Source: a virus. From it: 64,000 nucleotides of DNA. The stretch is from positions 1-64,000 of the IMG/VR virus record IMGVR_UViG_3300032116_000089; one strand, given 5' to 3'. Shown here piece after piece: positions 18,401 through 52,364 of this stretch (the stretch's first letter is position 1; every line of letters starts with the position of its first letter). The notes beneath the pieces are model-generated. The model was not told where the DNA came from, ran no database searches, and was given only the letters and a program-made list of their open reading frames with translations. A program made the position numbers and the translations under genes.

Positions 18401-21400
18401 TCCACACCATTACGATTATTCAAAAATATACTTCTTAAAATTGATTTGTCATATCCTGCTGCAAAGCTAGGTCTATTAGTCCATCCGCCCAACTGAGCAA
18501 TTACTGATTGACCCCTTTGAGTTTTAGAACTTGAAACTAGATTAACATAAAAACTAATATTTTCATCCTCTAATAATAAACAAGCCTCTGATTCTGTAAA
18601 CGTAGAGGCTAGTACAGATACAGAAGATGTTTTATTTGATGGATATTGATGCTCAACACCAAAGTATGTTTTATCTGAAACTGTTTTCTTAGATATGTAT
18701 GGTGTGATGTCTATTTTTGATATGCCGCGAGCTTGTAATACTCCACCTTCATCGGGAGTAAAGAAAGGCTCCGATGTGAGATTGCTAGTAATATTATATT
18801 CTATGCTGTCATACATATCGTGGTCGGCAGACCATGCAAAAACTAAGTTTTCGTCTTGTTGATCTCCAAGCTCATAATATGTTGTATTTTCATATATAAT
18901 ATTGAATTTTCTATCTCGTCTGAATTGAGCAGGAACTTCTGGATATATTATCTCTTGTATAACTTTTTCTGCTGCCGCTAATAATGGAATAGGCTCTTGA
19001 TTCTTAGTTGGTTTAGGAGGCGGAGGATTTGGTCCACAATCTGGAACAAAAGAACCAAAAATAAAGGGCCAATTCTTCTTGTATATAACCGTAGCAAAAC
19101 CTCTGGCAGTAGGCTTACAACAATAATCGTTCCATCCAGCTCTTAGATCTCCATAATTTTTAAGTGGCATTTCACAGCGTGTCTGTATCTGTTCTTTTTC
19201 GCCCTCTGGATCGCACAATACTTTTTCTTCGCATGGCATATGCTCTTCTTCATATTGAAAATAAATCTTTATATCGGCAACTCCGCTAGCTTTTAGTGGC
19301 ATTCTATTTGTAAATGTAGAAGTTGCGCCCTGTGGAATCATGGACGGAATGACATTATTAAAATCCGTATATCCATTTGGTAGAGATTCATATTGATTTC
19401 TTGCTGGCACAATCCTCATACGAGATTGCAATCTTTCTAAAAGCTTGTTAAGAATATCGTTAGACTTGGCGTATAATCCATTTCTTTCCCAAATTGGATC
19501 ATTAGCAACGAGAACTAGATTTCTATCACCCAGTGCGAGCCATCTCGCAATATTGTCAAACACTTCGTTACTAATACTTATAGCATCAGCAGAAGGTGTG
19601 ATGATAAATGCCAAACCGGCATCTGTGGGGATTTTAGAGTCTGTGAATTCTGTCTTAGTAAAGTTTTTGTCACTGAATATCTGCGATAGATATCCAAAGT
19701 GACCAGAATCTAGAGTATTGTCACTAGATAGCTCATGCAAGTTACCAAATCTACCAATTTCTACAGCCCTATTATGTGGAAAATATTTTCTAGATTGAAA
19801 TACGTGTACTGACCCAGCGTTAACGGCAGCAGACCAAGCTGGATCGATAACACTAGGTATTAATTCATTTGGATCACTATACAAAGTTTGGAATTTTGTT
19901 CCACCCTTAACGTGATAAACATCGGCGTCGTTGTAGAAATTTAAACTATCTGTAGGTGCGCCAGCAACAACTATACTACCGTCTTCATTGGTGTCAACAC
20001 TATAGCCTAGTCTAGATGTTGGAGCAAATTCTTGCGGTATGAATGTCCAAGATCCAATGGGTTGCATTCTTTCGTACCCAAATGTATGAATCTTTTGATA
20101 TTCTTGTATATTTAAATCTACTCTAGATTTGAACTTGTGTTCTGGATCTAATTGTATATACAATGCATAAGCAGCTTCTAAGCTAGGACGTTCTCTATAC
20201 TTCGTAACAGCTGTCTTGTATTTATCATAGTAATTAGATTCTACCCAACCTGCTAATAAAGAGTAATATAAGTCTCTTTGATCGTCTTTTCGTTCATAAA
20301 TATTAACTGCTTGCGTTGTATATGGAGATCCTATAACTACGACCTCGCCGTCATCGCTTATACTAACGGCATGACCAAATCTGTCTGGAGTGGTATATGT
20401 TACATTTTCAGATCGAATTTCTTGTATTAAATTCCAAGATCCACTTTCTTTTTCAAATATATATACTTTACCGCCACTCTCTGGAGGAACATTGAATTCT
20501 GATAAAGTAGTATTAAATATTCCAACTTTGTTAGTAAAGAATCTAAATCTGTCTTCTTGAATCATCTTTCCTGTATCTAATACTTCGGATAGTAAAGATT
20601 TAGACATTTCAATCCAATTTGCATCACCGTCTGATAGATATTCAACAACAAGACCAGATGATCTAACTCCAAAGGAATCAACAAGACCACTAGCAAAACT
20701 ATAGCTCTTATAAAAGTTGATAAATTCGTCTATTGCTGGTTCTAATGATTCTCGACCTAGAGAAACGCTGTTATCTATACAGATTCCTAAAACTGGAGGA
20801 ATGTTATTATTTAATTTACTTTCATCATATGGAAATGATTCAAAGAAAGTAGCTTTCATACCACTAACAGAATTGTCTATTATTTCTCTGCTAACTGGAT
20901 ATCCAACATTTCTACTAATATCACGTAAGGCTATAAAGTCTGGTTTTTCTGGAAAATATGTTTGCGACAATTCTTGATTGTTAGCCTTTGGCGGGCAAAT
21001 CATTAATCTTAGATCGAACTTTATTCTAGGATCAGAAAAATATCTAAACAACAGATCTTTATCAGCGACTGCTTCTAATACGTCGCGATATGTTAATATA
21101 ACTACTGACTTATTTATTACTACTGGTATTTCGTGCTTAAATTCATCAGAGAAAATCATTAGCCCAATGTTTACACCGGATGGATCGCCGTTGTCAAATA
21201 ATCTAGGTGTCCACTTTGCGCTGGGGCCACCGACAACAAGAGTCTGCTGGGAATCTTCACCAACAGATTTTTTATTGTGGTTTACAGCAAGGTCTAATGA
21301 GTGACCGAATTGTCTACCTTCTTGACCTACATACCAAGTAGTCATAATTGGATTGAATGGTAGGTCTTTGTATTTAACTTCTTTTGCTGTCGAGTAGTCC

Positions 21401-24400
21401 TTCAATAAGCCAGACGGAAGAGTAAGTGCCTGCTCTAAAATCCAAGAAGATTTGTAATTTTCAAGCGGCCATTCATATCCACTAGGTCTAGCCTGTCTAC
21501 GATATAAAAATACAGTTCCAGCTTCTGTTAATGTAAGAGGTGGAGCAACTCCACTATCATAAAGAACGGGTCTAAATGGAGCGCCGATAGCTAGTAAGTC
21601 ATCTTTGGAAGCTACAGACTTGCCAAACTTGTTTCCGCTACTTTGATAAAAACTGTCTGCTATTATTCTGAATCCATCATGATCTGTTTTTACTTGATCA
21701 GTTTCGTTTTTATTATATTCTACTTCTATAATTTCAGTTGGTATGTCTATTGCTTCGGAAGATCCAGATTTACCAGTTATGTTAATCACATATGGAGTAT
21801 TGGGTGCAAGTCCGGTGTATTTTCTTATTCCATAAAAGTGGCCGCTGTATGGCATTGGATCATATACGATTTGAGAACCGGATGCGTGTCCAAATGATCC
21901 ACTTGGGAAAGATAGATTAGTATAAGTATTCTTTGCCCTAAATATGCCACCATCTACGCAAGAGTCTGGATAATACCACTTAATTCCATGTATATCGATT
22001 ACGGCTTCTGAACATCTATTACTATTATTGGTTGAGCAAGAACCGTAGCATATGATATCAACTCCACGTATATTATCATCAGAGTCTACATAAGCATATT
22101 GATTGTCTTGCGCAGTAATATTTATTCCAACATTGTTATTTGTCCAATTTATAGAAGCACTTCTATTTGCTAGAGATGCTGAAATTGGATAATTTATAGT
22201 TACCAAATTAAGTGTACCGCTATCATATGCTATGTTTGGCTCATAACCATTTATGTACAATAATGTGCTATTATTTATACTATCTCCATAGCCACTGCCA
22301 TATATAAACATTGGCATGGTCGAGGAAGGATAGGCATTATATGATGCCGTTATACCTCTGGTCCTCAATGTTAAACTATTGTCAACAAAACCGGCATTTG
22401 GATCAGTTGCGTGTGAATATAGTATTACGCTGCCACTAGAAGGATAAACAGCTGGAGATATATACAATGGCATATATGTCTCTCTCATAAACTGTCCACT
22501 TACATATAGATTTAATCCTTCTGTACTAACAGAACCAATATTTAAAGTATGTAGATTCAATAAACCGGGGTTAGTATAAAATCCACTGCTATCAATGAAC
22601 AAATTGATATCATCTGGACTTGTAAATCTTTGCCCATCAACATATAATATAAGAGGTTTAGATCCAGAGCAAGACAGTGGTGCAAAAAGATTTAAATATG
22701 CAAATTGTTCATATTTTTCAACATTTGCGAAAAGATTTAATTGATTATTAAATGTATCGTTAACGAATATAGCTTCTTCTAGCCTTACATTTGCGCTATG
22801 TATCTTTATAAGAGAATTAATTGGTCTACCAGATGGATAAATAAGATCATACTGTAAAAACATATCATCAAAATCTTTAGAGAAATATTTTTCTCTAAAT
22901 TCTTTTGTATATGATTCTCTATCAAATACAGCCCATGGTTCAGATACGTCAAATAAGCTATCAAAAGTAAATTTGCTTGTTAACTTTCTAATACATCCAG
23001 AAGGCTCTAAATAATGTGTAGAACGATTAATCAGCCCAAACATTTTGCTCGGTCTATTATCAGACTCTTGATTTTTGGTATATAGACTGACAATTAGTTT
23101 TGGACCAACTTTGCCATCGTCCCAAACAATATCGCTGAACGTGTCGTGTTCAACTATAGTATCAACGCATATTGCATCATCATTAAATTGATATCCCTTT
23201 GGCAATGTTTTGCAAATTCTTGGAGCAATAGCATAAAATCTATCTTGATCTACAGATGGAATATTAGATAAATTGAATCTTAAAAAGTCATTTTCAATTT
23301 GAGTATGATATGCAACGCCCGACAAGTTCACGCTAGATGGTAATGTCAAATTTGTATAAGCGCTATATCCAGATCCATTATGCTTGAGATTAAATGATAA
23401 GAAATCATCTCCATTCTTCTTCTTAAAGAAGTCAAAATCTGGTGAAAATTGACATATTTTGTATGCCCCCAAATGCCATAAGTCAATGTCATCATCAATG
23501 TAAGAGTATTGATCAGATCTTATATTAGTAATAGAAGTATTGTTAAAATGCATTCTATGCGAATCAAAAAATGATCGCGCGCTGGTTTGCTTAAGAAACT
23601 TATTTAAGTTAGTGCTTTCAATAATATTACACTTACCATTAGAAGCACCAACCTCATGCAAAAATAATGGTAAAGGATTTTGAGCATTATAAACTTGAGA
23701 ATATCCTATAGCTAGTGCTGGAGATCCAGACAAAATGTATGTTGTTATTGTTGATGAGGTTGAACGTAAGTTGTTGAATCCAGATACTAATTCATTATCT
23801 GTATAAAGTTTATATGTGTAATTACCATCATCATTATAAGTAATCAAAATCGACAATGGAAATTGATATTGTGATATTAATATACTATCAGACAAGGTTA
23901 CTATGGTATCATCATCTTTTCGAACTTTTAGTTTTAAAGTGCCATCTTCGCAGATTAGTGCAAGTGAATACTTAGTGCTGTTTTCATATGAAAATATTAA
24001 ACAGTTGTTAAGATCATTAGTAGATACTTTGTCTGGAGTAAATCTTAAAAATAAAGCAAAGCCTAGTGGATTATCTGGATTATCATAATCATCAAAAGAA
24101 TCGTTGTCAAGAACATACATCGTAAGTTCGTTGGTCGATGAAATTCTAGCCGCTCTATCAAAAGCATCAAATATATTATTTTTCCATACTATTGATTTAT
24201 AATCTGTTGTAATATCATTAAATAATTGATTTGAAGAATATCTCCAACCAAAATTTTCAAGAATGTCAAAACTAGATGACGCTTGACCAGCATAATCTCC
24301 ATTAGTATCAAAAATATCTACCCCATCAGTGTTGTGAAAATCGACATACGAAGATAAAAATGGATTCAGAGCAGTTTTATGATTAAAAGAATAATCAAAT

Positions 24401-39366: not shown

Positions 39367-39882
39367 CTATATAGTAATATCTATAGATGCTAGCTCTTCT
39401 GATGAAGTGGCTGCATTTATTGACTGTTTTATGGAAGCATAAGAATTGCTTAATATTGAGCGAGCTTGACCATATTGCAACATAAGTAAAGTAAGATCTT
39501 GTAGATTCATAGAATGTGATTGACCCTCTTTGTCTACAATTGTTGCTAGATCATTTATTCCAATATTATTAGCTTCTTTAGCTAAAGTGAATGCCCCATT
39601 AAGTAAGGTAATATCAGAAACATCTATGCCTAAACTATAACCAGAAGGTGTCTCCCAGCCATCTTTGACTTTTTCTTTCCATACGTTATCAAGAATTTGC
39701 ATTTTTTGAATTTTAAGTTTTTGCAGAGGCCATGCGTTCAAAATAGTATTTATTTCTTCAATTTGAGATAATGAAGGTTGATTGTCTTCATAATATTGAA
39801 TATTCACAGATCCATCCGAAGATTCGGAAAGAGTTTTAACCATAATAATAGGTAACAAATCTCTATACAAATGATTTAACAT
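39367..39882 (-). CDS. putative fibre assembly chaperone (DUF4376-like)
   Basis: 171 aa after a fibre gene. C-terminal KQSINAATSSEELASIDI is typical of this class. Confidence 0.55.
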   Translation of the reverse strand: MLNHLYRDLLPIIMVKTLSESSDGSVNIQYYEDNQPSLSQIEEINTILNAWPLQKLKIQKMQILDNVWKEKVKDGWETPSGYSLGIDVSDITLLNGAFTLAKEANNIGINDLATIVDKEGQSHSMNLQDLTLLMLQYGQARSILSNSYASIKQSINAATSSEELASIDITI

Positions 39883-41702
39883 AAATAGGTTCCCATTATT
39901 CCATATTGTCCACTTACTGCTATATTCTCTGGTCCATATTTTTCATTGTTGACGATGGGCAGATTAGTAGTGTTATTACGAACTTTTTGTATTCCAGTAT
40001 ATTGTTGTATATTAGCTGGAATAGAAATAAAAGATGATATTAAACAAGTGCTAACATAATCATTGGCATCTCCACCGATATGATTATAGTTACTAATCAA
40101 AAAGTTACTACCGTTAAACCCATTTTCTAAAATAGAATTTATACCAAGAGCATAACTATTGTTAGAACCATTTAGAGTAACAGATAACTTAATATCCACA
40201 TTACATATTGAGTCAGTACCATTGATGACTAAAATTGGATCAATAAAGGTAGACGTAATTGGCGACCAACCTGTAGATGAAGTAACCCAATATGAACCCT
40301 TAACCAAAGACTTTAGAGGTTTGGAAATGCGATTATACTGATTAAATATAAGGCGTTGTTTGTATGTGTCCATAAATATATTAGATGAACCGGTATAAAT
40401 AGTTCCTAAATATTTTTTGGTATTGTCGGATAACATGATATAAATGCCATCAAATTTTGATATTTCTTCTATTCTGAATGAAGATGTTTTAGTGTTGTAA
40501 AACGGATCTTCAGAATCTTGCCAAGATGGTTCCCACATTTCCCACGGAACAACATCAAAGCTCAAAATATCATTATTCAAGTATCCAAATACATCATATA
40601 AAGTATTTGATGACAATGAAGAAAAAGTAGCGACGATCCTATTGTTGAAACTAGTTTTTACCCAAATATTTCCATCATATAAAGAAATTGAATTGCCGTT
40701 ATATGGAGAATAGTACAGAGTTACTCCAGAGCAATTTAAACAAGATGGATCACCTGAGCTTAATGTTAATCTACCATTAGATATATTGCTATTTATATCT
40801 GTAGAAGTAACTATATTATCTATTTTATCATCTAAGTATCCAGAAATTGCTACAATTTTATTGTTTAAAATGCCAGATATTGCAGTCATAGTGCCAGATA
40901 TTGCAGTACCACCAGCCATATTAAAGTACAATGATGACAAATCTGGAATATCTTCTTTAACAAGATATCTAAACATTGGATAATCTGGAGAACACGGCGG
41001 TACACAACCTCCAGACGGACCAGCAAAAACAGTATTGGCATTTTGCTTCTTGAGTAAAATATTTTGGTTAACAATACCGCTAAGATCAAAAACCACAGAC
41101 GAGTTAATGTTGAGTTGATTTGGTTCAAAATGAACTAACTGCCTGCCACCAGAATATGAAGATATTCCATTATTACCAGATGGAAAATAAATACCAGAAT
41201 TTCCTATATGAATTCCAGATACTACAATATTAGAGTTAGGACTTAAACCTCCTATGTCTAAAGTGCCAGATGGAACGGCTCTATTAATGCCTAATCTGCC
41301 ATTTGTAGAATCAAATACAATTTTATCGCTATATGACAGAGAGTTAGATGAGTTCCATATAGCCAATCCGCTGCTATTTGGAATAGGTTGAGTTCCAGAT
41401 GTATTGAATACAGAATTTGTAGCTGGATAAGTTACATATACTTCTTTAAGACCTTCTATAAAGTTTACTAATTGATTGGAATTAGTAGTTTTAAATGGGA
41501 ATCTTTTTATTTGATTAGAAGAGAGATATAGGCCAGAACCAATTTCATAATTAGTTCCATCTGTTACCGCATAGAATAAAGCATCATCACTAGAATATGA
41601 TGATGAAAAAGATGAAAATCCATTAACTGCACCGGACAAAACAAGATTGCCCGTGCCAATAGTATATGATATTTCTTTTACTCGATCATATAGCTTAATC
41701 AT
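39876..41702 (-). CDS. fibre/appendage protein
   Basis: N-terminal LYDRVKEISYTIGTGNLVLSGAVNGF anchor, a GRLGIN repeat and a GRLTLSSGDP...LYYSPYNGN distal domain. Confidence 0.65.
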   Translation of the reverse strand: MIKLYDRVKEISYTIGTGNLVLSGAVNGFSSFSSSYSSDDALFYAVTDGTNYEIGSGLYLSSNQIKRFPFKTTNSNQLVNFIEGLKEVYVTYPATNSVFNTSGTQPIPNSSGLAIWNSSNSLSYSDKIVFDSTNGRLGINRAVPSGTLDIGGLSPNSNIVVSGIHIGNSGIYFPSGNNGISSYSGGRQLVHFEPNQLNINSSVVFDLSGIVNQNILLKKQNANTVFAGPSGGCVPPCSPDYPMFRYLVKEDIPDLSSLYFNMAGGTAISGTMTAISGILNNKIVAISGYLDDKIDNIVTSTDINSNISNGRLTLSSGDPSCLNCSGVTLYYSPYNGNSISLYDGNIWVKTSFNNRIVATFSSLSSNTLYDVFGYLNNDILSFDVVPWEMWEPSWQDSEDPFYNTKTSSFRIEEISKFDGIYIMLSDNTKKYLGTIYTGSSNIFMDTYKQRLIFNQYNRISKPLKSLVKGSYWVTSSTGWSPITSTFIDPILVINGTDSICNVDIKLSVTLNGSNNSYALGINSILENGFNGSNFLISNYNHIGGDANDYVSTCLISSFISIPANIQQYTGIQKVRNNTTNLPIVNNEKYGPENIAVSGQYGIMGTYLC

Positions 41703-41708
41703 ATTCTA

Positions 41709-42674
41709 TCAAGCCGTATATGTTGGATTAATAGTTACAGTAGTAAGTCCACTGCCTCCCGGTTCGGTTCCAAATACAACTAAATCATTTACTATAGCGT
41801 CTAAGTAATATCCACCAGCACCAGCTTCTTCTGGCTTGCCCATGACCACAAAGCTTACAGAACGTAATTTTTGAGCATCATCACCAACTCTGTATGATAA
41901 AGCCACTGTATTCTCGCTGAAATCTTCTCTACTAGAAGCTGTTACTCTACCGTTACTATGACCAACTGCTACATAGTTGTTATCTTTAAATATGCCAGAA
42001 TTAAAAATAATTGTAAACTTGCCAGTAGCTTCTTTTTTAATGCCAGAGACATTATATGAATCAAGTACTGATGGGCTACCATTACCGCCAATGCCGCTAC
42101 CTTGGAATCTTATCCAAGCCTTAGCAACTCCTCTGGCAGAATCTAGCTTTGATGTATCTTTTAGGAATGTAAAGTTTGTACCACTTCCAACATTAATAGT
42201 CTCTGAAGTATTTGTTAGCTTGCTAAATTGTAGACCTCTATAGCCATTGTTGCTAGTTGGATCACCTTGACCACTAGCATTGATCCAAAAAGTTGACATA
42301 CCAAGGCTTCCGGCCATTGATCTTGTTCCGCTAACTGGTAAATACTGAGTATGAGGATCTCCGGTATTCAAACCATCTAATTGATTATGTAATATACTGC
42401 CGGGACCGGGATATGGAACTCTTTGCATATCAGTTCCATTTGGAGCATTAGGGAACACTATGCCAGATTCTACATATAATATGCCACCTAATCTCACATG
42501 GTTAACAAATGGTGTTTCGGAATTAAAATTACCACTGGCTACAATTTGATTTATAGATTCAACAGTATCTATAATACTGCTTCTGACATCGGCGGCTGAA
42601 ATTTGTCCAGCGTTGTTGTCTGGTATGACACCGCTAATATATGAAATTAAACCACTCTTTGATCTAACAGTCAT
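41709..42674 (-). CDS. short fibre/appendage protein
   Basis: 321 aa with N-terminal IPDNNAGQISAADVR, a GLNTGDPHTQYL motif and a C-terminal AKAWIRFQG...SYNVSGI...TGKFTIIF fibre-tip module. Confidence 0.6.
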   Translation of the reverse strand: MTVRSKSGLISYISGVIPDNNAGQISAADVRSSIIDTVESINQIVASGNFNSETPFVNHVRLGGILYVESGIVFPNAPNGTDMQRVPYPGPGSILHNQLDGLNTGDPHTQYLPVSGTRSMAGSLGMSTFWINASGQGDPTSNNGYRGLQFSKLTNTSETINVGSGTNFTFLKDTSKLDSARGVAKAWIRFQGSGIGGNGSPSVLDSYNVSGIKKEATGKFTIIFNSGIFKDNNYVAVGHSNGRVTASSREDFSENTVALSYRVGDDAQKLRSVSFVVMGKPEEAGAGGYYLDAIVNDLVVFGTEPGGSGLTTVTINPTYTA

Positions 42675-42686
42675 CTGAATCCTCCA

Positions 42687-43208
42687 TTAATATCTAAAAT
42701 AGCCGCCTCTGGAATCGTAATCACCGTGGGTTCTAACAACATAGTCACTGGCTGGACTATATGGGCCAAGAATAGCGTGTCCAACCATACTACCACCAGC
42801 ACGATAATCTAGTAGTAGTTTAGAGTATTTATCAGAGAGATCTTTGTACAGAACTGATAGGGTAGAGGCTACTCCCCTTAAGTCTATAGCAGATGGGCCA
42901 TCTTTGATTGATATTGCATTAGAAGCTTCAGTTTTTAATTCACTGCCGACTATGATGCAGGCAGTTTTTAATGCAGTTAAGTTGATAAAAGCATTATCTC
43001 TGGTATTACTATCAGTAGGATCTGGAGAAAGTTCACCATTGGCAATATCTATATCATATGAGTTTGTGAAATCAGTTTCTATTGATAGCATTTGTGCGCT
43101 AACTAGAATAGATGTTTCTATTCTATCATCAGAATACTTGTACTTTGCTTGGTCAAGATCATTTATTAAATGTCTAACCATTAATGGTATTTGACTGCGC
43201 CAAGACAT
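42687..43208 (-). CDS. putative head-tail adaptor (connector) protein
   Basis: 173 aa helical protein with VRHLINDLDQAKYKYSDDRI, a typical adaptor N-terminus. Has its own promoter motif. Confidence 0.6.
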   Translation of the reverse strand: MSWRSQIPLMVRHLINDLDQAKYKYSDDRIETSILVSAQMLSIETDFTNSYDIDIANGELSPDPTDSNTRDNAFINLTALKTACIIVGSELKTEASNAISIKDGPSAIDLRGVASTLSVLYKDLSDKYSKLLLDYRAGGSMVGHAILGPYSPASDYVVRTHGDYDSRGGYFRY

Positions 43209-43247
43209 AAAAAGTCCCCATTTTTGTTTTTAGGCTTCTCTATGTAA

Positions 43248-43254
43248 TATACAC
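43248..43254 (-). promoter_or_regulatory. GTGTATA putative late promoter
   Basis: Minus strand reads GTTTTAGTGTATATTACAT, 40 nt upstream of ATG 43208. Confidence 0.65.
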
Positions 43255-43259
43255 TAAAA

Positions 43260-43859
43260 CTACATAGTATCTAATTCTTCGTCATTTTCTGGAACTGGTT
43301 CATTTGCTAGTAATTTGCGGGATTTTTTAATAGCTCTATAAACTAACATTTTGCCAATTGCGTCCATAAATGGCAGACCTCTGCGCTTTGCTTCATCTCT
43401 AAGCCATCCAATAATTGTATCTATATTTTCTTCGCACCAATCATTTCCTTTTTCATTCATTTCTAAAGCGTGTCGCTTACAAGAGCAACTATCTGTCATT
43501 TGAATTCCGACAGACTTAATCATTTTTGATAGTATAGTACCGCAATGGTTGGGATTTTCCTCTAATGTTTTAGGATATAATGATCGTAAGTATTTGGCTG
43601 GATCATCACCAAATAACTGAGTAATTTTATTTTCTGCCTGAGATTTTGTCCAATCTCCAATTAAGTCATAGTCAGAACCATTCCAAATTGGTATATTTAT
43701 TTGTAGTCCAATTATTTGTGCTGACACAGATTTGGATTTTGGATTATCTATAAAAATAAACTCTAAGTTTTCTAAGATAACTGGATTTGGATTAACTACT
43801 TTTCCTGCGTTATCAGAATAAGGCGGTGGTTGAATTGTAATAGAATTTTTAAGTTTCAT
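43260..43859 (-). CDS. hypothetical two-domain protein with a Cys-containing helical C-terminal domain
   Basis: 199 aa containing HCGTIL...DSCSCKRHALEMNEKGNDWCEENIDTIIGWL. AAGGA RBS. Confidence 0.65.
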   Translation of the reverse strand: MKLKNSITIQPPPYSDNAGKVVNPNPVILENLEFIFIDNPKSKSVSAQIIGLQINIPIWNGSDYDLIGDWTKSQAENKITQLFGDDPAKYLRSLYPKTLEENPNHCGTILSKMIKSVGIQMTDSCSCKRHALEMNEKGNDWCEENIDTIIGWLRDEAKRRGLPFMDAIGKMLVYRAIKKSRKLLANEPVPENDEELDTM

Positions 43860-43918
43860 ATTTATTTCCTTTCAATAATGAGATCGTTACATACTATAAT
43901 AGCTAGTGCAAGCACTTT

Positions 43919-45610
43919 TTAGCCAAATCGCACACAAAATGTCATAGTCTCTACAGCGCCTTCGTCACCGGGATTAGGCGGTGGAGGTGTAAAGTTAGGA
44001 TATGCACAATTACATCCAAAATCGCAGGAATCAACAAGCAAAAGCCATTCGTCTTGGCCATTCCATCCCCAAAGGCAATTTCCTCCTCCGCAAACACATA
44101 TGCCGCCCGTACACATATCATTTTCTTTGCAGCATGTCCCATTACAGCATGTTTCATCGGGATCGCAAAGATCTACACATCCAGCCGGTGTGCATACTTT
44201 ACACAGAGTTGGGTTACAGCAGATACCCTGACAGCATGGAGCAATTGGATCACATCTATCAACGCAATTATTGCCCATACAGTCTTCGCAAGCCATTTTA
44301 TTACATGGTGGATCACAGCCGGGTGGATTTGGTGATGGAGTAGGTGGCTCGCAAGCTGGACCAACGATTGCAGTTGGGCAACAAAGACCACCAACAGGAG
44401 TCCATCCCTGTGGACAGCACCCTATAGATGTAATTTCAAAACCAATCGGACAGTTTCCCGGAGGTAACGTTGTAGATGGATTTTCAGTAGTACTTGGAGT
44501 GGAAGTTGTAGATGATGGAGTTTGTGTAGTACTACTAGTTGGCTCAGTAGTCGGAACTGTAGTTGTCCCTGTTGTTGTGCTGCTAGTGCCTGTGGTTGAA
44601 GTTGAAGTTGAAGTTGAAGTTGAAGTGGATGTTGTAGTTGTAGTACTAGTTGTCGTTGTTGGTGGATCTATACAAGCAAACTCATCAAAAATATTTTCTG
44701 GACAACATTTAATCGCGCCGGTAGATGGATCTATTAATATATAAGATCCACAAGGGCAACAACTTTCACCCTGTATATGATCAATGAGACAATAATTTGC
44801 GCCATATACTATACATGGGTTGGGGGTTGTTGTAGTTGTAGTTGTGCTTGTAGATGTAGAGGTGCTTGTAGTTGTGGGTTCTACAGTTGTAGTTGTAGTT
44901 GTGGGTTCTACAGTTGTAGTTGTAGTTGTGCTTGTGGATGTAGAGGTGCTTGTTGACGTAGAAGTACTTGTTGACGTAGAAGTGCTGGTTGATGTTGAAG
45001 TGCTGGTTGATGTTGATGTGGAAGTAGTTGTTGGGATGAGCGTCGTAGTGCTGCTAGTTGTAGTGCTACTAGTTGTTGTACTACTAGTTGTTGTTGGGCA
45101 TGGAATATCAATAGTTATAGAATAAGGATTTAAACTAATTGATGGTGGGACTTCGCAACAAGTGCTATCAAAATCACATATACTAGTTATAGATACAAGT
45201 AATTTTTTGTTGAATAGATTTTTAGTGGAACTATTACAATCAAAAATTGGAATATTTATGTTATTGTCACCTATATTATTGACACTAATAAATCCAAGTA
45301 TGCTATCTGTCATATACTCGCTTACATACACTTGAATAGTATTGCTCAAAGTAACTGGATATAGATTTGCATTATCAATATTTTCTGCATACCAAAATAA
45401 TTCAAAGCCAGTAATAGTTATACTAGAGTCTACGACGCATTTTTGCGTGGTGGTTATTAATGATTCGCCATGCTGTATAAGTACTGATTTATCATGGACA
45501 AGCTTGAGATCAATACTACCACTTGTATGCAATACTCTTAGCCCAAGTCCACCATTTGTGTACTTGGTTCCTAATGGAAAATAGATCGATCCACAGTTAC
45601 ACGATGACAT
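43919..45610 (-). CDS. Cys-rich protein with mucin-like Thr/Ser stalks
   Basis: 563 aa with two long T/S tracts separating CC/CP-rich modules. In-strand, with 10-nt spacing from the upstream gene. Confidence 0.75.
   Translation of the reverse strand: MSSCNCGSIYFPLGTKYTNGGLGLRVLHTSGSIDLKLVHDKSVLIQHGESLITTTQKCVVDSSITITGFELFWYAENIDNANLYPVTLSNTIQVYVSEYMTDSILGFISVNNIGDNNINIPIFDCNSSTKNLFNKKLLVSITSICDFDSTCCEVPPSISLNPYSITIDIPCPTTTSSTTTSSTTTSSTTTLIPTTTSTSTSTSTSTSTSTSTSTSTSTSTSTSTSTSTTTTTTVEPTTTTTTVEPTTTSTSTSTSTTTTTTTPNPCIVYGANYCLIDHIQGESCCPCGSYILIDPSTGAIKCCPENIFDEFACIDPPTTTTSTTTTTSTSTSTSTSTSTTGTSSTTTGTTTVPTTEPTSSTTQTPSSTTSTPSTTENPSTTLPPGNCPIGFEITSIGCCPQGWTPVGGLCCPTAIVGPACEPPTPSPNPPGCDPPCNKMACEDCMGNNCVDRCDPIAPCCQGICCNPTLCKVCTPAGCVDLCDPDETCCNGTCCKENDMCTGGICVCGGGNCLWGWNGQDEWLLLVDSCDFGCNCAYPNFTPPPPNPGDEGAVETMTFCVRFG
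44470..45095. repeat. degenerate trinucleotide-based low-complexity repeats encoding Thr/Ser tracts
   Basis: GTTGTA, GAAGTT and GTGCTT arrays, including a 27-nt duplication (TTTTTTVEP twice) near 44870-44930. Confidence 0.85.
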
Positions 45611-45620
45611 TTATTGACTC

Positions 45621-46802
45621 TTAAGGATTTGGGGGTGGACAATCTAGAATATGCGCCGCTAAACAATCTGAATGACACTTATACTTATAAAGTCCGTCTT
45701 CCCAACAAGAATGACCATAATCTTCTATACATTGAGCATCTATTATTGGTTCTATAGAAGATGGTCTACAGGCATCACACTGGTATGCTGGAGAAGGACA
45801 TTGACAACATCCACATTCAGACGCATCTCCAGTAAACGTCCAGTATGGTGGCTGATCGCATCCACAGCTTTCATCTGGAGCATTCAGAATAAAATTTTCT
45901 ATGCATGATATGTTAAGACTTGCGTTCCACTTATTACCGCACGGAGAATTTGGAGCAGAAGGGTTACATGAAATAGAGCCAATAATTATATCTCCACATC
46001 CTAATGTTCCATTTATAGACCAAGTATTGTCTCCGCTCTTAGTAAAGCTAGCTGTGGCGTTCCTATCAGCACACTCTGAACCAAATCTAACTATACCATT
46101 ACCGTCCCAGTTGCAACAATTAGGATCTTGAGTAGTGCTTGTAGAAGTACTTGTCGAAGTCGAAGTACTTGTCGAAGTCGAAGTACTTGTCGAAGTCGAA
46201 GTACTTGTCGAAGTCGAAGTACTTGTCGAAGTCGAAGTACTTGTCGAAGTCGAAGTACTTGTCGAAGTCGAAGTACTTGTGCTAGTAGTAGTTATGCAAC
46301 TTGATTCTACAATTACTGTAAATTCATCAGTATCAATAGTATTTCCAGATAAGTTTTTAGTGAGTACATCTATAGTATACCAAATTATATTACTACTATT
46401 AAGCCAAGTCCAAGGATAAGCTGGTACATTAGTGTATGATGGGGCTTGTCCGTCGAACGGATTAGGTATTCCATACATGTTAAAATATAATCCACTACCG
46501 CTAATTTCAAACAATGGTCTAGACTTCAGTGCGAATTTTGAATCATCCAGTTCAATATAAAACGGTTCACATCCAGCTGATGACATTAGTATGTCAGCAA
46601 CTTTTATGAATAATGGATCTAGTGTTTTTACTGGTAGATTTAGTACATAAACAGACTTATTGTAAGGTGGGCATGGTGCATTTTCATCTGGCAATACAAA
46701 GTAATCGATATCATATGGATCAGCAGGAACCGCTGGTCCACGTTGATCATATTTGGAATATGGAGATGGTAGTTGTATGCACGGATAATTAGGCCGTCCC
46801 AT
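45621..46802 (-). CDS. Cys-rich protein with a (Thr-Ser)n stalk
   Basis: 393 aa: N-terminal domain, about 55 residues of TS repeat, then a Cys-rich C-terminal domain. Confidence 0.75.
   Translation of the reverse strand: MGRPNYPCIQLPSPYSKYDQRGPAVPADPYDIDYFVLPDENAPCPPYNKSVYVLNLPVKTLDPLFIKVADILMSSAGCEPFYIELDDSKFALKSRPLFEISGSGLYFNMYGIPNPFDGQAPSYTNVPAYPWTWLNSSNIIWYTIDVLTKNLSGNTIDTDEFTVIVESSCITTTSTSTSTSTSTSTSTSTSTSTSTSTSTSTSTSTSTSTSTSTSTSTSTSTSTTQDPNCCNWDGNGIVRFGSECADRNATASFTKSGDNTWSINGTLGCGDIIIGSISCNPSAPNSPCGNKWNASLNISCIENFILNAPDESCGCDQPPYWTFTGDASECGCCQCPSPAYQCDACRPSSIEPIIDAQCIEDYGHSCWEDGLYKYKCHSDCLAAHILDCPPPNP
46144..46280. repeat. perfect 18-bp tandem repeat, 7 full copies plus 11 nt
   Basis: Unit GAAGTACTTGTCGAAGTC, encoding TSTSTS on the minus strand. 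Confidence 0.95.
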
Positions 46803-46812
46803 AATCTATCCT

Positions 46813-49800
46813 CTATGGATCACAACAGCATGATGTGTCTACTGCGCTTATCCAAATTGGTCTATATTCTCTGTTTACTAAACCAGCAATGACATATGCG
46901 CCAGAATGTATGACAGATGTTATATCTCTATTGAATATAAATATTGTGCCAGAGTTTGCCCAATCATTGTCTTTAATAAGCATTACACCGCTGGTTTTGT
47001 TTCCATTTGTTGGAGCTTGCAATCCGCTTGGCATATATCCTTCTATAAACATAGTGCGGATTAAATTAATTCCGCTATTTCCTATAGATATACCACTATT
47101 TCCTAGATTGACTCCACTCTGAGCTAGATTTGTGGCGTGAGTTATTCCACTAGAAGTATCAAGGGATGTGCCATCGCTAAACCTAATAGCTCCTCTTAGA
47201 CGTAAATCGCCGTTAAGTTCAGCAAACGGTCTTCCAGATGGATCTGGTGGAGTATAGTATGTTGTAGCATTCAACATCGGATTCTTAACGTGATCTAAAA
47301 CTAATAAATCAGCAGATCCGCTAGCACTAAATCTAAAACGTAAATTATTAGATGGATATAGTAAATTTGTTCCACTATTAATAACTTCAATTATATTAGT
47401 TTTTAGATGTAAGCTTTCTGTATCATTAGCATTATTGATATATAATCTTCCGCCACTTGGCATTATAAGTTTTTTATCAATGTTATTGGGACCAATAGTG
47501 CCACTAAATAATAACTTATCATTTAAACCTAATAGGAATTGATAAGATCCACTCTCTGAACTTCCAATGTTATGACCAATAATGATGTTGCCACTAGTAT
47601 TAGATAACGAAGGAGTCTTATTAAAAGAATAGTTTCCAAAGACTAAGTTATCATATGTAATATTAAGGCCACTAGCTGAGTTTTGACCAATAACTATATT
47701 ATTGTTTCCAGAAGTTAGATTATATAGTGACTCATAACCAATTGAAGTGTTGCCAGACCCAGAGTGAATATTAAATAATGACTTATATCCATAGCTAGTA
47801 TTGTACATTGTTTTTCTAGATATGTCTCTTCTTCCAGACGGAGACATGTATCCAGCATATGTATTCCCGCTTGGGTCAGTATAAACTGCTCTAGCATCTA
47901 AATTGTCTAGCTTATTAACAACTAAGTCAAAGTTATTGCCAGATGAATCTAAGTAAAACAATGAGTTATGTTGTCTAGCAAATTCTTTGTATGTATGAAG
48001 ATTATATATCTTACCGTATCCGCTCGTTGGGGTTACGGAAGAAGTGCTAACAAATCTGTTATCTTTAAGACTAATGGCTGGAAGTGCTGGGCCACCACTG
48101 TATCCAACTGTAATCATTGCGTTGGTATTGCCGCTAGATAGTATCCCTATTTGTTGAGAATTTTTTAATCTGGCAAAAATAATTTGTCCAGAATCTTTAA
48201 ACATATTTATGTCAAGAACACCGCTTCGGCTTAAATAGGCAATCTCTGCGCCACTCAATTCGCAATTTAATGGGGCTAATAGTTGTATGGCAGATTTCTT
48301 GAATCCGTTGTTTTGAGATGTAAATCTTCCAATGCAATCAATTTGAGATCTAACATTTAAAATTGTATTCGGTAAGATACTTTCGGTAATTGATGGAATA
48401 TTAGTTATTGAAAGAACAGAACCATTGTTATCATCCTTCATAAGAACTAGGCCATTGACGAACCTAGAAGTATCATTATATGATCCAATTACAAATCTAT
48501 CTGTCAAATCACCTTGAACATCTAAATCGGTATCATCTATATACTTTAATTCAAAACCACGAAGTTTATCTTTATTTTGATTAGCTATATCTTTGGTTCT
48601 TATCTTTGATCTACTCAAAAATCTCTGACTGACATTTACTCCAGACTCTAAAGCAGAGACTGAGAAAACATAATCAGAAGTGTCGCCAGAATTAGATATA
48701 AAGTTGATGTTTCCAACACCAGCTAAATGTCCGCTTGATGATCCGGGATTAACATTTAATACATTCTTACGAGAGATATATGTTATTCCACTATTAAAAA
48801 ATAATCCAAAACAATCATTTTCACCAAATGCTGATGGATTATAAGATACGATACTATTGGTTTTAATGTATCTATCGCTTGGTACTTGAAAATTTATGTT
48901 ACTATACCATGTAGCATTATACTGATCGCTAAAGCAAGACATGCCTTCGGATGGTTGTCTGAATATTAGACTATATTGTTTGTTACTTGTAAGTGACTTA
49001 AGAAATAATCCACCACCATCTAGGCCAGAATCTGTAAATAGCGGTTCATTAGATGAGTTAACGCCAAGGTAAAGGTTTTTATTATTATATGTTTCAGTAT
49101 CTACATTTATTAACCTACCTATGCTTGCTACATTATTTACAATTATGTTATCAAAATATCCAACTACCCATCTTCTAGATTGACTACCTAAAGAAAAATT
49201 ACTACCTATTGATGGTAGAAAAGATCCGCTTAGAGATATGGCCAAAGAAGATTCTCTTAATAAGGTAACATTATTGTTAAATCTAATGCCACTGGATACA
49301 TGAACATTTTGCCAAGGATAAAGTGCGTGTCCTAAATCAAAAGATCCGCTTCTAGATGGAGAAATATTGCCACTAACTTGCAGTGTTCCAAAATTATGAA
49401 GAGTTCTAGTTCCGACACCAAGTTGAATTCCAGATAAGTCTCCATGCAATAAAGGAATCCAACCAGAGCCTAATGGATTGCTGCATATATGAGTATCATT
49501 TACTGGATGATAAGCTAAGAAAAACTTATAGTTATCATCCTTAGCTACATAATAACCAGCACCATGACCGATAGCAATATTTCCAGTTCCTGACTTATTT
49601 TTGTTTAAAGCAAAGTTGCCCAAACCAATGTTCAAATTACCAACGGTATTGCCAGCAAGGGCATGATAACCAAGACCAATATTGCCTTGACCGTATACGT
49701 TACAAGATAAAGAATTGGACCCTAAAGCTGTATTTTGAACCCCTTGATAATTAGCCTTTAACGCAAAATATCCTACAGCAGTATTATCTTGACTGTTAGC

Positions 49801-50028
49801 TCCCGGTACATATAAATACTCTATAGTAGATTGACCAACTCTAGTATTGCCAGAAGGAGATGTGGCTAGATTGAGCGCTCTTAATTCTGCATCAGCTGTT
49901 AAATTATGTACAGAATCGATAATATCAAGGAGATTGTGTCTAATATCATATGGAGATATTTCGCCACGCGCTTGATCGGATATCTCATTTGTAATATTAC
50001 TAACAAGCTGGGACTTGCTTAATATCAT
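46813..50028 (-). CDS. 1071-aa fibre/appendage protein with YadA-head-like NTAxGxxAL repeats
   Basis: Two clusters of N(T/I)xxGxx(A/S)L repeats, SFDLGxxxxxW fibre motifs and an N-terminal anchor shared with 41709-42674. Ends SCCCDP. Confidence 0.7.
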   Translation of the reverse strand: MILSKSQLVSNITNEISDQARGEISPYDIRHNLLDIIDSVHNLTADAELRALNLATSPSGNTRVGQSTIEYLYVPGANSQDNTAVGYFALKANYQGVQNTALGSNSLSCNVYGQGNIGLGYHALAGNTVGNLNIGLGNFALNKNKSGTGNIAIGHGAGYYVAKDDNYKFFLAYHPVNDTHICSNPLGSGWIPLLHGDLSGIQLGVGTRTLHNFGTLQVSGNISPSRSGSFDLGHALYPWQNVHVSSGIRFNNNVTLLRESSLAISLSGSFLPSIGSNFSLGSQSRRWVVGYFDNIIVNNVASIGRLINVDTETYNNKNLYLGVNSSNEPLFTDSGLDGGGLFLKSLTSNKQYSLIFRQPSEGMSCFSDQYNATWYSNINFQVPSDRYIKTNSIVSYNPSAFGENDCFGLFFNSGITYISRKNVLNVNPGSSSGHLAGVGNINFISNSGDTSDYVFSVSALESGVNVSQRFLSRSKIRTKDIANQNKDKLRGFELKYIDDTDLDVQGDLTDRFVIGSYNDTSRFVNGLVLMKDDNNGSVLSITNIPSITESILPNTILNVRSQIDCIGRFTSQNNGFKKSAIQLLAPLNCELSGAEIAYLSRSGVLDINMFKDSGQIIFARLKNSQQIGILSSGNTNAMITVGYSGGPALPAISLKDNRFVSTSSVTPTSGYGKIYNLHTYKEFARQHNSLFYLDSSGNNFDLVVNKLDNLDARAVYTDPSGNTYAGYMSPSGRRDISRKTMYNTSYGYKSLFNIHSGSGNTSIGYESLYNLTSGNNNIVIGQNSASGLNITYDNLVFGNYSFNKTPSLSNTSGNIIIGHNIGSSESGSYQFLLGLNDKLLFSGTIGPNNIDKKLIMPSGGRLYINNANDTESLHLKTNIIEVINSGTNLLYPSNNLRFRFSASGSADLLVLDHVKNPMLNATTYYTPPDPSGRPFAELNGDLRLRGAIRFSDGTSLDTSSGITHATNLAQSGVNLGNSGISIGNSGINLIRTMFIEGYMPSGLQAPTNGNKTSGVMLIKDNDWANSGTIFIFNRDITSVIHSGAYVIAGLVNREYRPIWISAVDTSCCCDP

Positions 50029-50043
50029 GTTAAGTTCCAGTAA

Positions 50044-50748
50044 CTATTTTAGGCTGATTTCTAGCGAATTAGCATCAAATCTTATATTGTCTCCAAGATA
50101 AACATAGCGTGGATTAGTTAGTTTAGCATACATCAATAAATTACCAGAGCCAACGGTTGGATGATCTACCACAGCTATTCCAGAAACCCAACCCCATTCA
50201 GTTAAGGCTGTATTGAAGACAATTTGATTTTTGTTTCTAATAAAACCATTACCCTCATAATCTGGATAATTAGATTTGACATATACTCCAGAATTAAACA
50301 TCCCAACATTTCCACTTGGCGCAAAAAATGAAACAGATGGAAATTCTTTAAAAGTATATGTAATATTTTCTCCGGGTCCACCATTGGCTGTAGAGTAACT
50401 ATTTGCAGCCGTGGTAGATAGAAATATAGGATAAAAATATGCTAGTGTTCCGCTGGTAGTTGAGCCATATACACTATAAGCAGTTGTGGAATCTACCCCA
50501 ACAGAATTCCAAGAATTGTCACCATTTGTGGCTGGAGAACCCAAGCTTATTCTTTGATAATTAGTTGTAACAAAGTTAAGGCCATTTTGTACACCAGATG
50601 GTAATTCTGGAATAGAGCTTCCAGTATCAGAATCTAACGGTACTCCACTTGTTAAAGCAATACAAATTGTAGATGGTCTTGAGAAAGCGGAGTTTCGGAA
50701 GAGATGACTCAATAGACCAGACTCAAGATAATCCGATAATGCGGCCAT
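50044..50748 (-). CDS. conserved phage virion structural protein
   Basis: LSDYLESGLLSHLFR...IALT...YQR...IVFNTALTEWGWVSGIAVVD...GNLL...GDNIRF matches a widespread phage structural family, here with a central insertion. Confidence 0.65.
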   Translation of the reverse strand: MAALSDYLESGLLSHLFRNSAFSRPSTICIALTSGVPLDSDTGSSIPELPSGVQNGLNFVTTNYQRISLGSPATNGDNSWNSVGVDSTTAYSVYGSTTSGTLAYFYPIFLSTTAANSYSTANGGPGENITYTFKEFPSVSFFAPSGNVGMFNSGVYVKSNYPDYEGNGFIRNKNQIVFNTALTEWGWVSGIAVVDHPTVGSGNLLMYAKLTNPRYVYLGDNIRFDANSLEISLK

Positions 50749-50792
50749 ATTATTCTCCTATTATGTCCTTTGAATAACGTTATCTAATGTAT

Positions 50793-50834: not shown

Positions 50835-50860
50835 AATGTGATGGATATTTCTAAATTATA

Positions 50861-51896: not shown

Positions 51897-52364
51897 TCAG
51901 GGGAGGTTGACTTCTACTTTGGCATAGCCATCGGCATCCTTACTGGTAAGGAAACGACCGACAACTAAACCACCAGAACTGCCGGGACTGTCGCCACGAA
52001 CATTGCCAGCATTTACGTGGCAAGCATAGGCTAATGAGCCAGCACTTGGTGAACCGGTGACGTTGTTTGTTACGACATAACCCTTGCGGAGTACTGTCAC
52101 TTTGCCACCCTTCTGCACTTCATCCTTATACTGGTTGAGGTGAGTACGGGTTAGATCCTTATTTACTACGTCGTTTAATAGAATACCAACTGGAACATTG
52201 GTGCCACTTACGGCGGCATACTTCACAAGGTTAACACCTTGATCCATAGCTGCACCAGAACCAGCGGTATCATGAACAACTACACCACCGCGAGTTGCAG
52301 TACCGGCGTTGTAGAAGAAACTGATATCAGTCTGAAGCTCGTATCTATCTGCTTTTAGGGCCAT
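51897..52364 (-). CDS. head decoration / cement protein
   Basis: 155-aa Gly/Val-rich protein (PVGILLNDVV, GGKVTVLRKG) between scaffold and capsid genes. Confidence 0.7.
   Translation of the reverse strand: MALKADRYELQTDISFFYNAGTATRGGVVVHDTAGSGAAMDQGVNLVKYAAVSGTNVPVGILLNDVVNKDLTRTHLNQYKDEVQKGGKVTVLRKGYVVTNNVTGSPSAGSLAYACHVNAGNVRGDSPGSSGGLVVGRFLTSKDADGYAKVEVNLP

What the first reader, a model, noticed from the sequence alone, without database searches (positions are those of the whole stretch)
39876..50748. Ser-Gly dipeptide excess in putative surface virion proteins: candidate glycosylation sequon of an undescribed virion glycan system
Seen (hand counts, approximate): SG occurs about 41 times in the 1071-aa protein versus about 13 for the reverse GS. 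It occurs about 17 times in the 608-aa, 11 in the 321-aa and 8 in the 234-aa protein, and is frequent in the terminal regions of the 3697-aa protein. It is rare in the capsid protein (2), protease-scaffold (1) and chaperones (1 each). The sites are dispersed, not tandem, and span unrelated folds. Established: Ser-Gly is the attachment sequon for eukaryotic proteoglycan chains, and some phages glycosylate their virions with their own glycosyltransferases. Inference: selection for many SG acceptor sites, modified by phage sugar enzymes such as those at 3-2033, giving a glycan-coated virion.
Basis: partly seen in the sequence, partly recalled or inferred. Interest (0 to 1): 0.85.

Follow-up and report, generated by a model that had tools for sequence, protein, structure and literature searches.

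The report
Ser-Gly turn excess in phage fibres
Five fibre-like particle proteins of this uncultured lake phage carry 2.5 to 3 times more Ser-Gly pairs than chance, at tight turns between beta-strands. The signal is real and lineage-specific, but nothing yet shows that these serines carry sugars from the phage's own transferase genes.

Summary
SG/GS counts are 41/13, 17/5, 11/6, 8/4 and 68/27 in the 1071-, 608-, 321-, 234- and 3697-aa proteins. Pooled, SG is 145 against 55.5 expected (z about 12), the top of all 400 dipeptides. GS, NG and DG are flat, and the rest of the 90-kb genome is flat.

It is not composition, low complexity or a DNA word. SG sits at strand-turn-strand junctions, often after Pro. 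The excess is kept across hundreds of relatives but is graded by lineage: glycines preceded by Ser rise from 14% to 37% at constant Ser/Gly content. Full-length homologues at about 30% identity have no excess, so the fold does not require it.

The "sugar enzymes" are real. The window starts inside a UDP-GlcNAc 2-epimerase, and relatives show a membrane-free operon with several transferases. No transferase gene tracks the excess, and relatives whose p1071 and giant proteins lack it keep the operon core.

Best reading is a Ser-capped tight turn favoured in this lineage (0.45). Ser-specific O-glycosylation stays a serious rival (0.33). Earlier notes of this scan report the same signal in at least eight other aquatic phage genomes.

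The parts
46813..50028 (-). p1071, a conserved fibre-like virion protein; the strongest SG excess in the window (41 vs 13.4)
   Evidence: 120 full-length homologues have a median of 2.07x. PHROG matches are virion structural and tail spike proteins. In the AF2 model, 31 of 41 SG serines are in coil, and 44% of SG glycines lie 0-3 residues before a strand.
50044..50748 (-). p234, a homologue of the small fibre monomer gp80 of podophage GP4 with an insertion of about 130 aa; SG 8 vs 3.0
   Evidence: Pfam PF23140, E 9e-23. PDB 8JOU, E 1e-4; the aligned GP4 positions are N-N, T-G and G-G where p234 has SG. The orthogroup is 2.76x, z 23.
41709..42674 (-). p321, a fibre-like protein that shares its first 45 residues with p1071; SG 11 vs 4.7
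   Evidence: The orthogroup is 2.05x.
39876..41702 (-). p608, a fibre-like protein; SG 17 vs 7.5
   Evidence: The orthogroup is 1.93x. Its orthologues stay SG-rich even in G014 (19 vs 5.6) and G022 (14 vs 4.4).
15481..26574 (-). p3697, the giant protein after the tape measure, with FG-GAP repeats. It lies outside the finding's coordinates but belongs to the same phenomenon. The flanks are SG-rich (2.8x) and the central 840 aa are neutral.
   Evidence: Orthologues: G007 68 vs 30.7; G016 90 vs 33.1; G025 96 vs 34.5; G014 only 50 vs 35.5.
51897..52364 (-). 155-aa virion protein next to the capsid gene; a weaker member (orthogroup SG 1.99x, GS 1.5x)
42687..45610 (-). Contrast set inside the finding's span: the 173-aa and 563-aa proteins are SG-depleted although Ser-rich (0 vs 1.3; 1 vs 4.8)
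   Evidence: Across relatives the 173-aa family has 7 vs 22.5 expected, with GS 31.
3..260 (+). C-terminal fragment of a UDP-GlcNAc 2-epimerase. The contig starts inside the distal end of a glycan operon.
   Evidence: PF02350, E 4e-15. The 333-aa orthologue in G007 is 78% identical.
826..1548 (+). 240-aa ORF with a sub-threshold GT-D (DUF1792) match; an accessory cassette gene that does not track the SG excess
   Evidence: PF08759, E 9e-4, 19.5 bits against a cut-off of 27. Present in 8 of 20 related records and absent from the SG-rich G005, G009 and G016.

Best explanation
The Ser-Gly pairs are strand connectors. In these beta-rich appendage proteins a Ser, often preceded by Pro, caps a tight turn, and the following Gly takes the left-handed position. 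This is a type I turn with a Gly bulge, or an ST-turn. A new beta-strand begins one to three residues later.

In this phage lineage Ser has step by step displaced Thr, Asp, Gly and Ala in front of Gly. New SG turns have also arisen in variable loops.

Shown here: the position, the sequence context, the substitution pattern, and the specificity to lineage and domain. Inferred: the turn geometry. Not explained: why Ser is preferred. On this reading the serines need not be modified, and the excess is a lineage-specific way of building exposed turns on top of a mild bias that many phage tail proteins share.
For: - **Context.** Pro at -1 is 3x enriched (PSG 20 vs 2.5 in shuffles). V/I/T/N follow the Gly, and hydrophobic residues alternate on both sides.
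- **Structure model.** 44% of SG glycines lie 0-3 residues before a strand start, against 22% of other glycines.
- **Substitutions.** In 120 homologues the Ser column alternates with N, D, T and G in front of a conserved Gly. In the solved homologue GP4 gp80 the aligned pairs are N-N, T-G and G-G.
- **Milder bias elsewhere.** Unrelated phages not known to glycosylate virions show SG>GS: lambda J 1.86x, lambda H 1.95x, T4 gp34 1.7x.
- **No gene link.** No glycosyltransferase gene co-varies with the excess.
Against: - General turn statistics (established knowledge) favour Asp and Asn over Ser in front of Gly. Here NG and DG are flat or depleted and TG falls to about 0.2x.
- The excess climbs steadily toward the query's lineage: 15, then 24-28, then 32, then 40 SG per protein, at constant composition.
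- Same-fold homologues at about 30% identity have none (0.84x).
- Glycines in SG are less conserved than other glycines (0.62 vs 0.73).
- 6 of 7 lineage-private sites arose with both residues changed.
- Neighbouring Ser-rich proteins are depleted.

These points look like selection on the pair itself, which a pure folding habit does not predict.
Confidence: 0.45

Rival explanations
1. SG serines are acceptor sites of a Ser-specific O-glycosylation carried out in the cytoplasm by the phage's soluble glycosyltransferase operon. The result would be a sugar coat on head- and tail-borne appendages. Selection would act on the number of sites, not on each position.
For: - A conserved, membrane-free operon lies beside the virion genes. 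The core is three GT1 genes and two unknown genes; the cassette holds GT2, epimerase, methyltransferase and GT-D-like genes.
- GDP-mannose dehydratase is a core gene immediately upstream of the head genes.
- Ser is preferred while Thr is depleted. Site density rises along the lineage, positions turn over, and sites are created anew.
- The pattern is domain-specific in the giant protein, and neighbouring proteins are SG-depleted.
- There is a precedent: TibC heptosylates serines, not threonines, in the TibA beta-helix, including Ser-313 in the sequence N-S-G-G (PMC4358343).
- The complete SG-rich genomes G003 and G007 have no ThyA-type hydroxymethylase, which weakens DNA as the acceptor.
Against: - There is no chemistry.
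- No transferase resembles a known protein O-transferase. PDB and Atlas hits are generic GT4, and the GT-D match is sub-threshold.
- No gene tracks the excess.
- G014 keeps the operon core, yet its p1071 and giant protein have no excess.
- The operon follows the replication genes and a dNMP kinase, so DNA or a host glycan remain possible acceptors.
Confidence: 0.33
2. Ser is chosen in front of Gly for chemical robustness of long-lived particles. It would replace Asn-Gly (prone to deamidation) and Asp-Gly (prone to isomerisation, and charged) at exposed turns.
For: In the p1071 family NG is 0.5x, and Ser alternates with N and D at the same columns. DG falls from 7.5 to 3 per protein along the lineage.
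Against: - NG is equally low in the SG-poor clade (0.69x).
- NG is not depleted in the five proteins pooled (40 vs 42.5).
- The largest loser is Thr-Gly, which has no such liability.
Confidence: 0.1
3. It is an artefact of composition, low-complexity linkers, a repeated module or a DNA-level word.
For: These proteins are Ser- and Gly-rich. TCA is almost never used before Gly (2 of 127).
Against: - Within-protein shuffles give z 8-9.
- GS and S-x-G are flat.
- Only 15 of 145 sites lie in Ser/Gly-rich stretches, and only two fit an SGN..IG repeat.
- Three Ser codon types are used. TCA avoidance before Gly is genome-wide (4 of 251 in other ORFs).
- Equally Ser/Gly-rich neighbours are flat.
Confidence: 0.02

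Closest known systems
Type I beta-turn followed by a left-handed Gly (G1 bulge, 3:5 hairpin) with an ST-turn or Asx-turn cap
   Same: The sites lie between beta-strands. Pro is favoured two residues before the Gly. Ser interchanges with Asn, Asp, Thr and Gly at the same columns in homologues.
   Different: General statistics favour Asp and Asn at that place. Here Ser takes up to 37% of all glycines while Thr-Gly nearly vanishes, and the preference is graded by lineage.
Bacterial autotransporter heptosyltransferases (TibC/AAH) acting on TibA and AIDA-I (PMC4358343)
   Same: Many serines, not threonines, on turns of a beta-rich adhesin are glycosylated in the cytoplasm. One mapped site is Ser in N-S-G-G.
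   Different: No heptosyltransferase-like gene turned up in the ORFs scanned here. The phage transferases are GT4/GT2 types, and no modification has been shown.
Virion glycosylation of mycobacteriophages by phage-encoded glycosyltransferases (recalled from memory; PMC11256854 mentions the inference)
   Same: Phage-encoded transferases would decorate the phage's own particle proteins.
   Different: As I recall, the sugars there sit on C-terminal Ser/Thr-rich tails of capsid and tail-tube subunits. Here the capsid and tube proteins are not SG-enriched, and the sites are dispersed turns in fibres.
Eukaryotic proteoglycan Ser-Gly xylosylation sequon
   Same: The dipeptide itself.
   Different: That sequon needs flanking acidic residues and a GT14-type xylosyltransferase in the secretory pathway. 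Acidic residues are not among the preferred neighbours here, and no such enzyme was seen. It is an analogy only.
Serine-rich-repeat adhesin glycosylation (GtfA/B with the GT-D enzyme dGT1)
   Same: Soluble GT4-type and GT-D-type enzymes build O-glycans on serines of a surface fibre.
   Different: Those acceptors are long low-complexity Ser-X repeats, whereas these sites are dispersed. The GT-D match is below threshold, and the gene is absent from several SG-rich relatives.
Autonomous glycosylation by giant viruses (chloroviruses, Mimivirus fibrils; PMC4691112)
   Same: The virus encodes nucleotide-sugar enzymes, including GDP-mannose dehydratase, and several soluble transferases.
   Different: The hosts are eukaryotic, the linkages and sequons differ, and there is no sequence relationship beyond generic GT folds.

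Membership tests
Capped tight turn (type I turn + G1 bulge / ST-turn) | Lies between two beta-strands | tested here: met
   Hydrophobic residues alternate on both sides. 44% of SG glycines are 0-3 residues before a strand start against 22% of other glycines, and 31 of 41 SG serines are in coil. The model is of modest quality (pLDDT 62).
Capped tight turn (type I turn + G1 bulge / ST-turn) | Pro favoured at the position before the capping residue | tested here: met
   PSG is 20 observed against 2.5 +/- 1.6 in shuffles. P at -1 is 3.0x enriched.
Capped tight turn (type I turn + G1 bulge / ST-turn) | The capping residue interchanges with Asn, Asp, Thr in homologues while Gly is kept | tested here: met
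   Column counts in 120 homologues; the GP4 gp80 alignment.
Capped tight turn (type I turn + G1 bulge / ST-turn) | Gly in left-handed backbone conformation, with the Ser hydroxyl bonded to the backbone | not testable with these tools
   The tools do not return model coordinates, and no homologue of the SG-rich parts has a solved structure.
Phage-encoded protein O-glycosylation system | Glycosyltransferases and nucleotide-sugar enzymes are encoded by the phage | tested here: met
   Epimerase fragment in the window; GMD; operon in relatives.
Phage-encoded protein O-glycosylation system | A transferase related to a known protein-acceptor enzyme | tested here: not met
   Only generic GT4/GT2 matches. 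The GT-D match is below the cut-off and has no PDB match.
Phage-encoded protein O-glycosylation system | Acceptor motif co-varies with a transferase gene across genomes | tested here: not met
   The GT-D-like gene is absent from the SG-rich G005, G009 and G016. Giant-protein ratios are 1.41, 1.63 and 2.40 in genomes with the short GT1-330, and 2.0-2.78 in genomes with the intact gene (n=10, not significant).
Phage-encoded protein O-glycosylation system | No lipid-carrier or export machinery, so the glycan is assembled on a soluble acceptor | tested here: met
   No ORF has four or more hydrophobic segments except tape measures in G003, G007, G016 and G014. This is a crude hydropathy scan, and it fits DNA as acceptor equally well.
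Phage-encoded protein O-glycosylation system | Sugar found on the serines | not testable with these tools
   This needs virions and mass spectrometry.
BAHT (TibC/AAH) system | Heptosyltransferase of the BAHT family is present | tested here: not met
   No such family appeared in Pfam scans of 36 non-structural ORFs of this genome or of the operons of G007 and G014. Whole genomes of relatives were not scanned.
Proteoglycan Ser-Gly sequon | Acidic residues flanking Ser-Gly | tested here: not met
   The preferred neighbours are P and V before the pair and V, I, T, N after it. No acidic residue stands out beyond Glu at -1 (1.5x, 8 of 145 sites).
Serine-rich-repeat adhesin glycosylation | Long low-complexity Ser-X repeat acceptor | tested here: not met
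   Only 15 of 145 sites lie in Ser/Gly-rich windows. Median spacing is 16 residues.

The most novel reading that the evidence does not exclude
A large group of uncultured freshwater phages coats its head- and tail-borne appendages with O-linked glycans. A Ser-specific transferase of a conserved, membrane-free phage operon would attach them to Ser-Gly turns. Site density is still rising in some lineages, as in a glycan shield, and by this scan's earlier notes the same tag recurs in other aquatic phage groups.
Probability: 0.3. Interest if true: 0.85.

Novelty: new variant of a known kind. Interest (0 to 1): 0.5.

Why it matters
If the serines are glycosylated, this would be a widespread and undescribed way for environmental phages to dress their fibres. 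It would have a readable sequence tag that predicts which virion proteins are exposed, and it would affect adsorption, stability and host range.

If they are not, the result is still useful. It shows a strong, lineage-graded dipeptide bias in phage fibres that composition and fold do not explain, and this should be treated as a background signal before anyone reads Ser-Gly excess as a sequon. Either way, the five proteins, the conserved operon core and the same-fold relatives without the excess give a well-defined experimental system.

Tried and rejected
- **DNA-level cause.** TCA avoidance before Gly looked odd but is a genome-wide codon-pair effect.
- **Composition, linkers, repeats.** Rejected by shuffles, by the flat GS and S-x-G counts, and by the low-complexity count.
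- **Generic beta-turn preference.** NG and DG are not enriched, and same-fold homologues lack the excess. A milder bias in lambda, T4 and cyanophage proteins is real.
- **GT-D-like ORF as the linked enzyme.** It does not track the trait.
- **Short 330-aa GT1 as a natural knock-out.** It is present in G014, G021 and G022, but G021's giant protein is 2.4x.
- **GDP-mannose dehydratase as a discriminator.** It is core to both clades.
- **DNA glycosylation.** G003 and G007 have no ThyA-type hydroxymethylase. A dNMP kinase lies near the operon, so DNA as acceptor is not excluded.
- **Fold search of the p1071 model.** No significant match.
- **PDB sequence searches.** Nothing for the p1071 family or p608.
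- **Atlas search of the 555-aa GT1.** Only generic viral GT4 clusters.
- **More long contigs of the SG-poor clade.** None in IMG/VR.
- **Ancestral reconstruction.** The machine does not offer it. I used group-frequency counts instead.
Full report
**Setting.** The window is the first 64 kb of a 90,427-bp IMG/VR record, estimated 57% complete. It comes from an uncultured freshwater tailed phage whose complete relatives are 160-175 kb. On the minus strand the genes run, in order: capsid (50861-51868), p234, p1071, six smaller genes including p321 and p608, connector and tube genes, a 2361-aa tape measure (26576-33661), the 3697-aa giant protein, and distal tail proteins.

Within-protein shuffles give z 8.4 (p1071), 8.8 (p3697) and 3.2-3.8 (p608, p321, p234).
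- Pooled, SG is 145 against 55.5 expected. It is the single outlier among 400 dipeptides. GS, NG and DG are at expectation, and TG, KG and PG are depleted.
- The other 32 ORFs of the window (130 vs 119) and the rest of the genome (26 vs 27.8) are flat.
- Equally Ser/Gly-rich neighbours are flat or depleted. The 563-aa protein has 1 vs 4.8, and the 173-aa family has 7 vs 22.5 across relatives.
- Only 15 of 145 sites lie in Ser/Gly-rich stretches.
- Three Ser codon types are used. The near-absence of TCA before Gly is a genome-wide codon-pair effect.

**Where are the sites?**
- Pro is 3x enriched just before the Ser (PSG 20 vs 2.5). V, I, T or N follow the Gly, and hydrophobic residues alternate on both sides.
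- In an AF2 model of p1071 (pLDDT 62, so only secondary structure is used), 31 of 41 SG serines are in coil. 44% of SG glycines lie 0-3 residues before a strand start, against 22% of other glycines.
- In the giant protein the flanks are 2.8x and a conserved central block of about 840 aa is 0.5x. The orthologues in G007 and G016 show the same low central block.

**Relatives.**
- p1071 has hundreds of full-length homologues. In the best 120, SG is a median 2.07x expected (range 1.31-3.01) and GS equals expectation.
- About ten SG sites are nearly invariant. The rest turn over, with Ser alternating with N, D, T or G in front of a conserved Gly.
- Over 80 IMG/VR loci the excess is a property of orthogroups: p1071 1.81x (z 24), p234 2.76x (z 23), p321 2.05x, p608 1.93x, the 155-aa head protein 1.99x. 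Capsid is 1.17x, scaffold 1.05x and unmatched ORFs 1.05x.
- In every whole genome examined except G014 and G022, the giant protein and, where the record holds them, the p1071, p234 and p608 orthologues lead the ranking. The extreme is a p1071-like protein of G023 with 72 SG against 18.6.

**The fold does not require it.**
- Full-length p1071 homologues at about 29-31% identity have no excess, although they match in length, GC (0.38) and Ser/Gly content. Pooled they give 0.84x, against 2.14x in the SG-rich set.
- Sorting homologues by identity to the query gives SG per protein of 15.2, 27.7, 23.8, 31.9 and 40.2. GS (12-15) and S-x-G (11-14.5) stay flat.
- Over the same bands TG falls from 6.9 to 1.0, DG from 7.5 to 3, GG from 6.9 to 4 and AG from 8.5 to 5.
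- The share of glycines preceded by Ser rises from 13.9% to 37.4%, with Ser at 11.3-12.8% and Gly at 9.4-10.3% throughout.
- Six of the seven SG sites private to the query's lineage arose with both residues changed.
- Glycines in SG are less conserved than other glycines (0.62 vs 0.73).
- p234 is a homologue of the solved GP4 fibre monomer gp80. Where p234 has SG, GP4 has N-N, T-G and G-G.

**Controls outside the group.** In T4, lambda, cyanophage S-RSM4 and phage Venkman, tail and fibre proteins range from 0.3x to 2.5x. Lambda J is 1.86x, lambda H 1.95x, T4 gp34 1.7x and S-RSM4 proteins 1.6-2.5x, with z never above 3.3. A mild SG>GS bias is therefore common in tail proteins. Ratios of 2.5-3.9x with z of 8-12 are not.

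**The sugar genes.**
Window 3-260 is the C-terminal end of a UDP-GlcNAc 2-epimerase, so the contig begins inside the distal end of an operon.
- In G007 the replication genes are followed by a 555-aa GT1, an FkbM methyltransferase, GT1 genes of 371 and 330 aa, three unknown genes, a GT2, the epimerase, a homologue of the window's GT-D-like ORF and a conserved 162-aa ORF.
- Across 80 further loci the three GT1 genes and two of the unknown genes are near-universal. The rest is a swappable cassette.
- GDP-mannose 4,6-dehydratase is a core gene immediately upstream of the head genes.
- No complete genome has a multi-pass membrane protein other than the tape measure. There is therefore no phage flippase, polymerase or priming transferase.
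- G003 and G007 lack a ThyA-type hydroxymethylase, but a dNMP kinase lies near the operon. DNA remains a possible acceptor.

**Does any transferase travel with the excess?** No.
- The GT-D-like ORF is absent from the SG-rich G005 (94% complete), G009 and G016.
- G014, G021 and G022 carry only the N-terminal half of the 330-aa GT1. Their giant proteins score 1.41x, 2.40x and 1.63x, against 2.0-2.78x in seven genomes with the intact gene. This is not significant, and G021 is a clear counterexample.
- G014 keeps the core of the operon (apart from the shortened 330-aa GT1), yet its p1071 (7 vs 10.9) and giant protein (50 vs 35.5) have little or no excess. Its p608 orthologue is SG-rich (19 vs 5.6). 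The trait is set per protein and per lineage, not switched on or off per genome.

**Weighing.**
- The context fits a Ser-capped tight turn, and part of the bias is generic to tail proteins.
- Several features are better explained by selection on the pair itself: the Ser-specific and directional rise, the turnover of sites, their creation anew, the domain specificity, and the depletion in neighbours. A Ser-specific modification would account for these.
- A published precedent exists. TibC heptosylates serines but not threonines in the TibA beta-helix, one of them in N-S-G-G (PMC4358343).
- There is no chemistry, no informative transferase homology and no gene association.
- I therefore rank the structural turn reading first (0.45) and the glycosylation sequon second (0.33).

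**Earlier notes of this scan** report the same signal, with the same open question, in at least eight other aquatic phage genomes. They also describe the operon as a core plus a cassette. I confirmed the core-plus-cassette layout here. I could not reproduce here a link to one transferase gene, which one note claimed for another genome.

Noticed in passing
whole window, coding strands: Codons ending in A are avoided before Gly codons genome-wide. TCA-GGN occurs at 2 of 127 TCA codons in the SG-rich proteins and 4 of 251 in the other window ORFs. Non-Ser NNA codons are also under-used before Gly. This may be avoidance of AGG-containing Shine-Dalgarno-like words.
   Followed up: partly
window 63876-64000, continuing to 64577 of the genome (minus strand): The 233-aa ORF next to the 602-aa protein starts with a strong Mtd_N domain (PF18454, E 1e-18), the N-terminal domain of the BPP-1 tropism determinant. 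I did not look for a reverse transcriptase or template repeat.
   Followed up: partly
window 46813-50028 and 41709-42674 (minus strand): p1071 and p321 share their first 45 residues or so (36% identity) and nothing else. This suggests a common docking module for two different appendages.
   Followed up: no
window 42687-43208 (minus strand) and its orthologues in L001-L080: The 173-aa protein family is SG-depleted (7 vs 22.5 expected over 18 orthologues) while GS is 31. It is the opposite of its neighbours.
   Followed up: partly
window 1984-2757 (plus strand): An ORF with HNH/homing-endonuclease PHROG matches is 87-89% identical in G007 and G003 and 53-58% in distant relatives. It is syntenic throughout and overlaps the upstream ORF by 50 bases. 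That is unusually conserved for a mobile endonuclease.
   Followed up: no
G014:28289-28813, G021:52867-53307, G022:43596-44081 (L113, L209, L213): Three mutually distant relatives encode only the N-terminal half (about 146-174 aa) of the otherwise universal 330-aa GT1. They lack the nucleotide-sugar-binding half.
   Followed up: yes
G007 46265-57470 (L096): A family-2 glycosyltransferase (290 aa) sits inside the replication module, between a PD-(D/E)XK nuclease and a DNA polymerase III alpha that is split into two ORFs with an exonuclease gene between them.
   Followed up: no
G023:22547-26509 (L217): A 1320-aa p1071-like protein has 72 SG against 18.6 expected (3.9x; GS 13). It is the most extreme case seen in this group.
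   Followed up: no
window 15481-26574, protein residues 2051-2890: The central conserved block of the giant protein (33-55% identical in distant orthologues) is SG-neutral and poorer in Ser, unlike both flanks. It may be a buried or enzymatic domain.
   Followed up: partly
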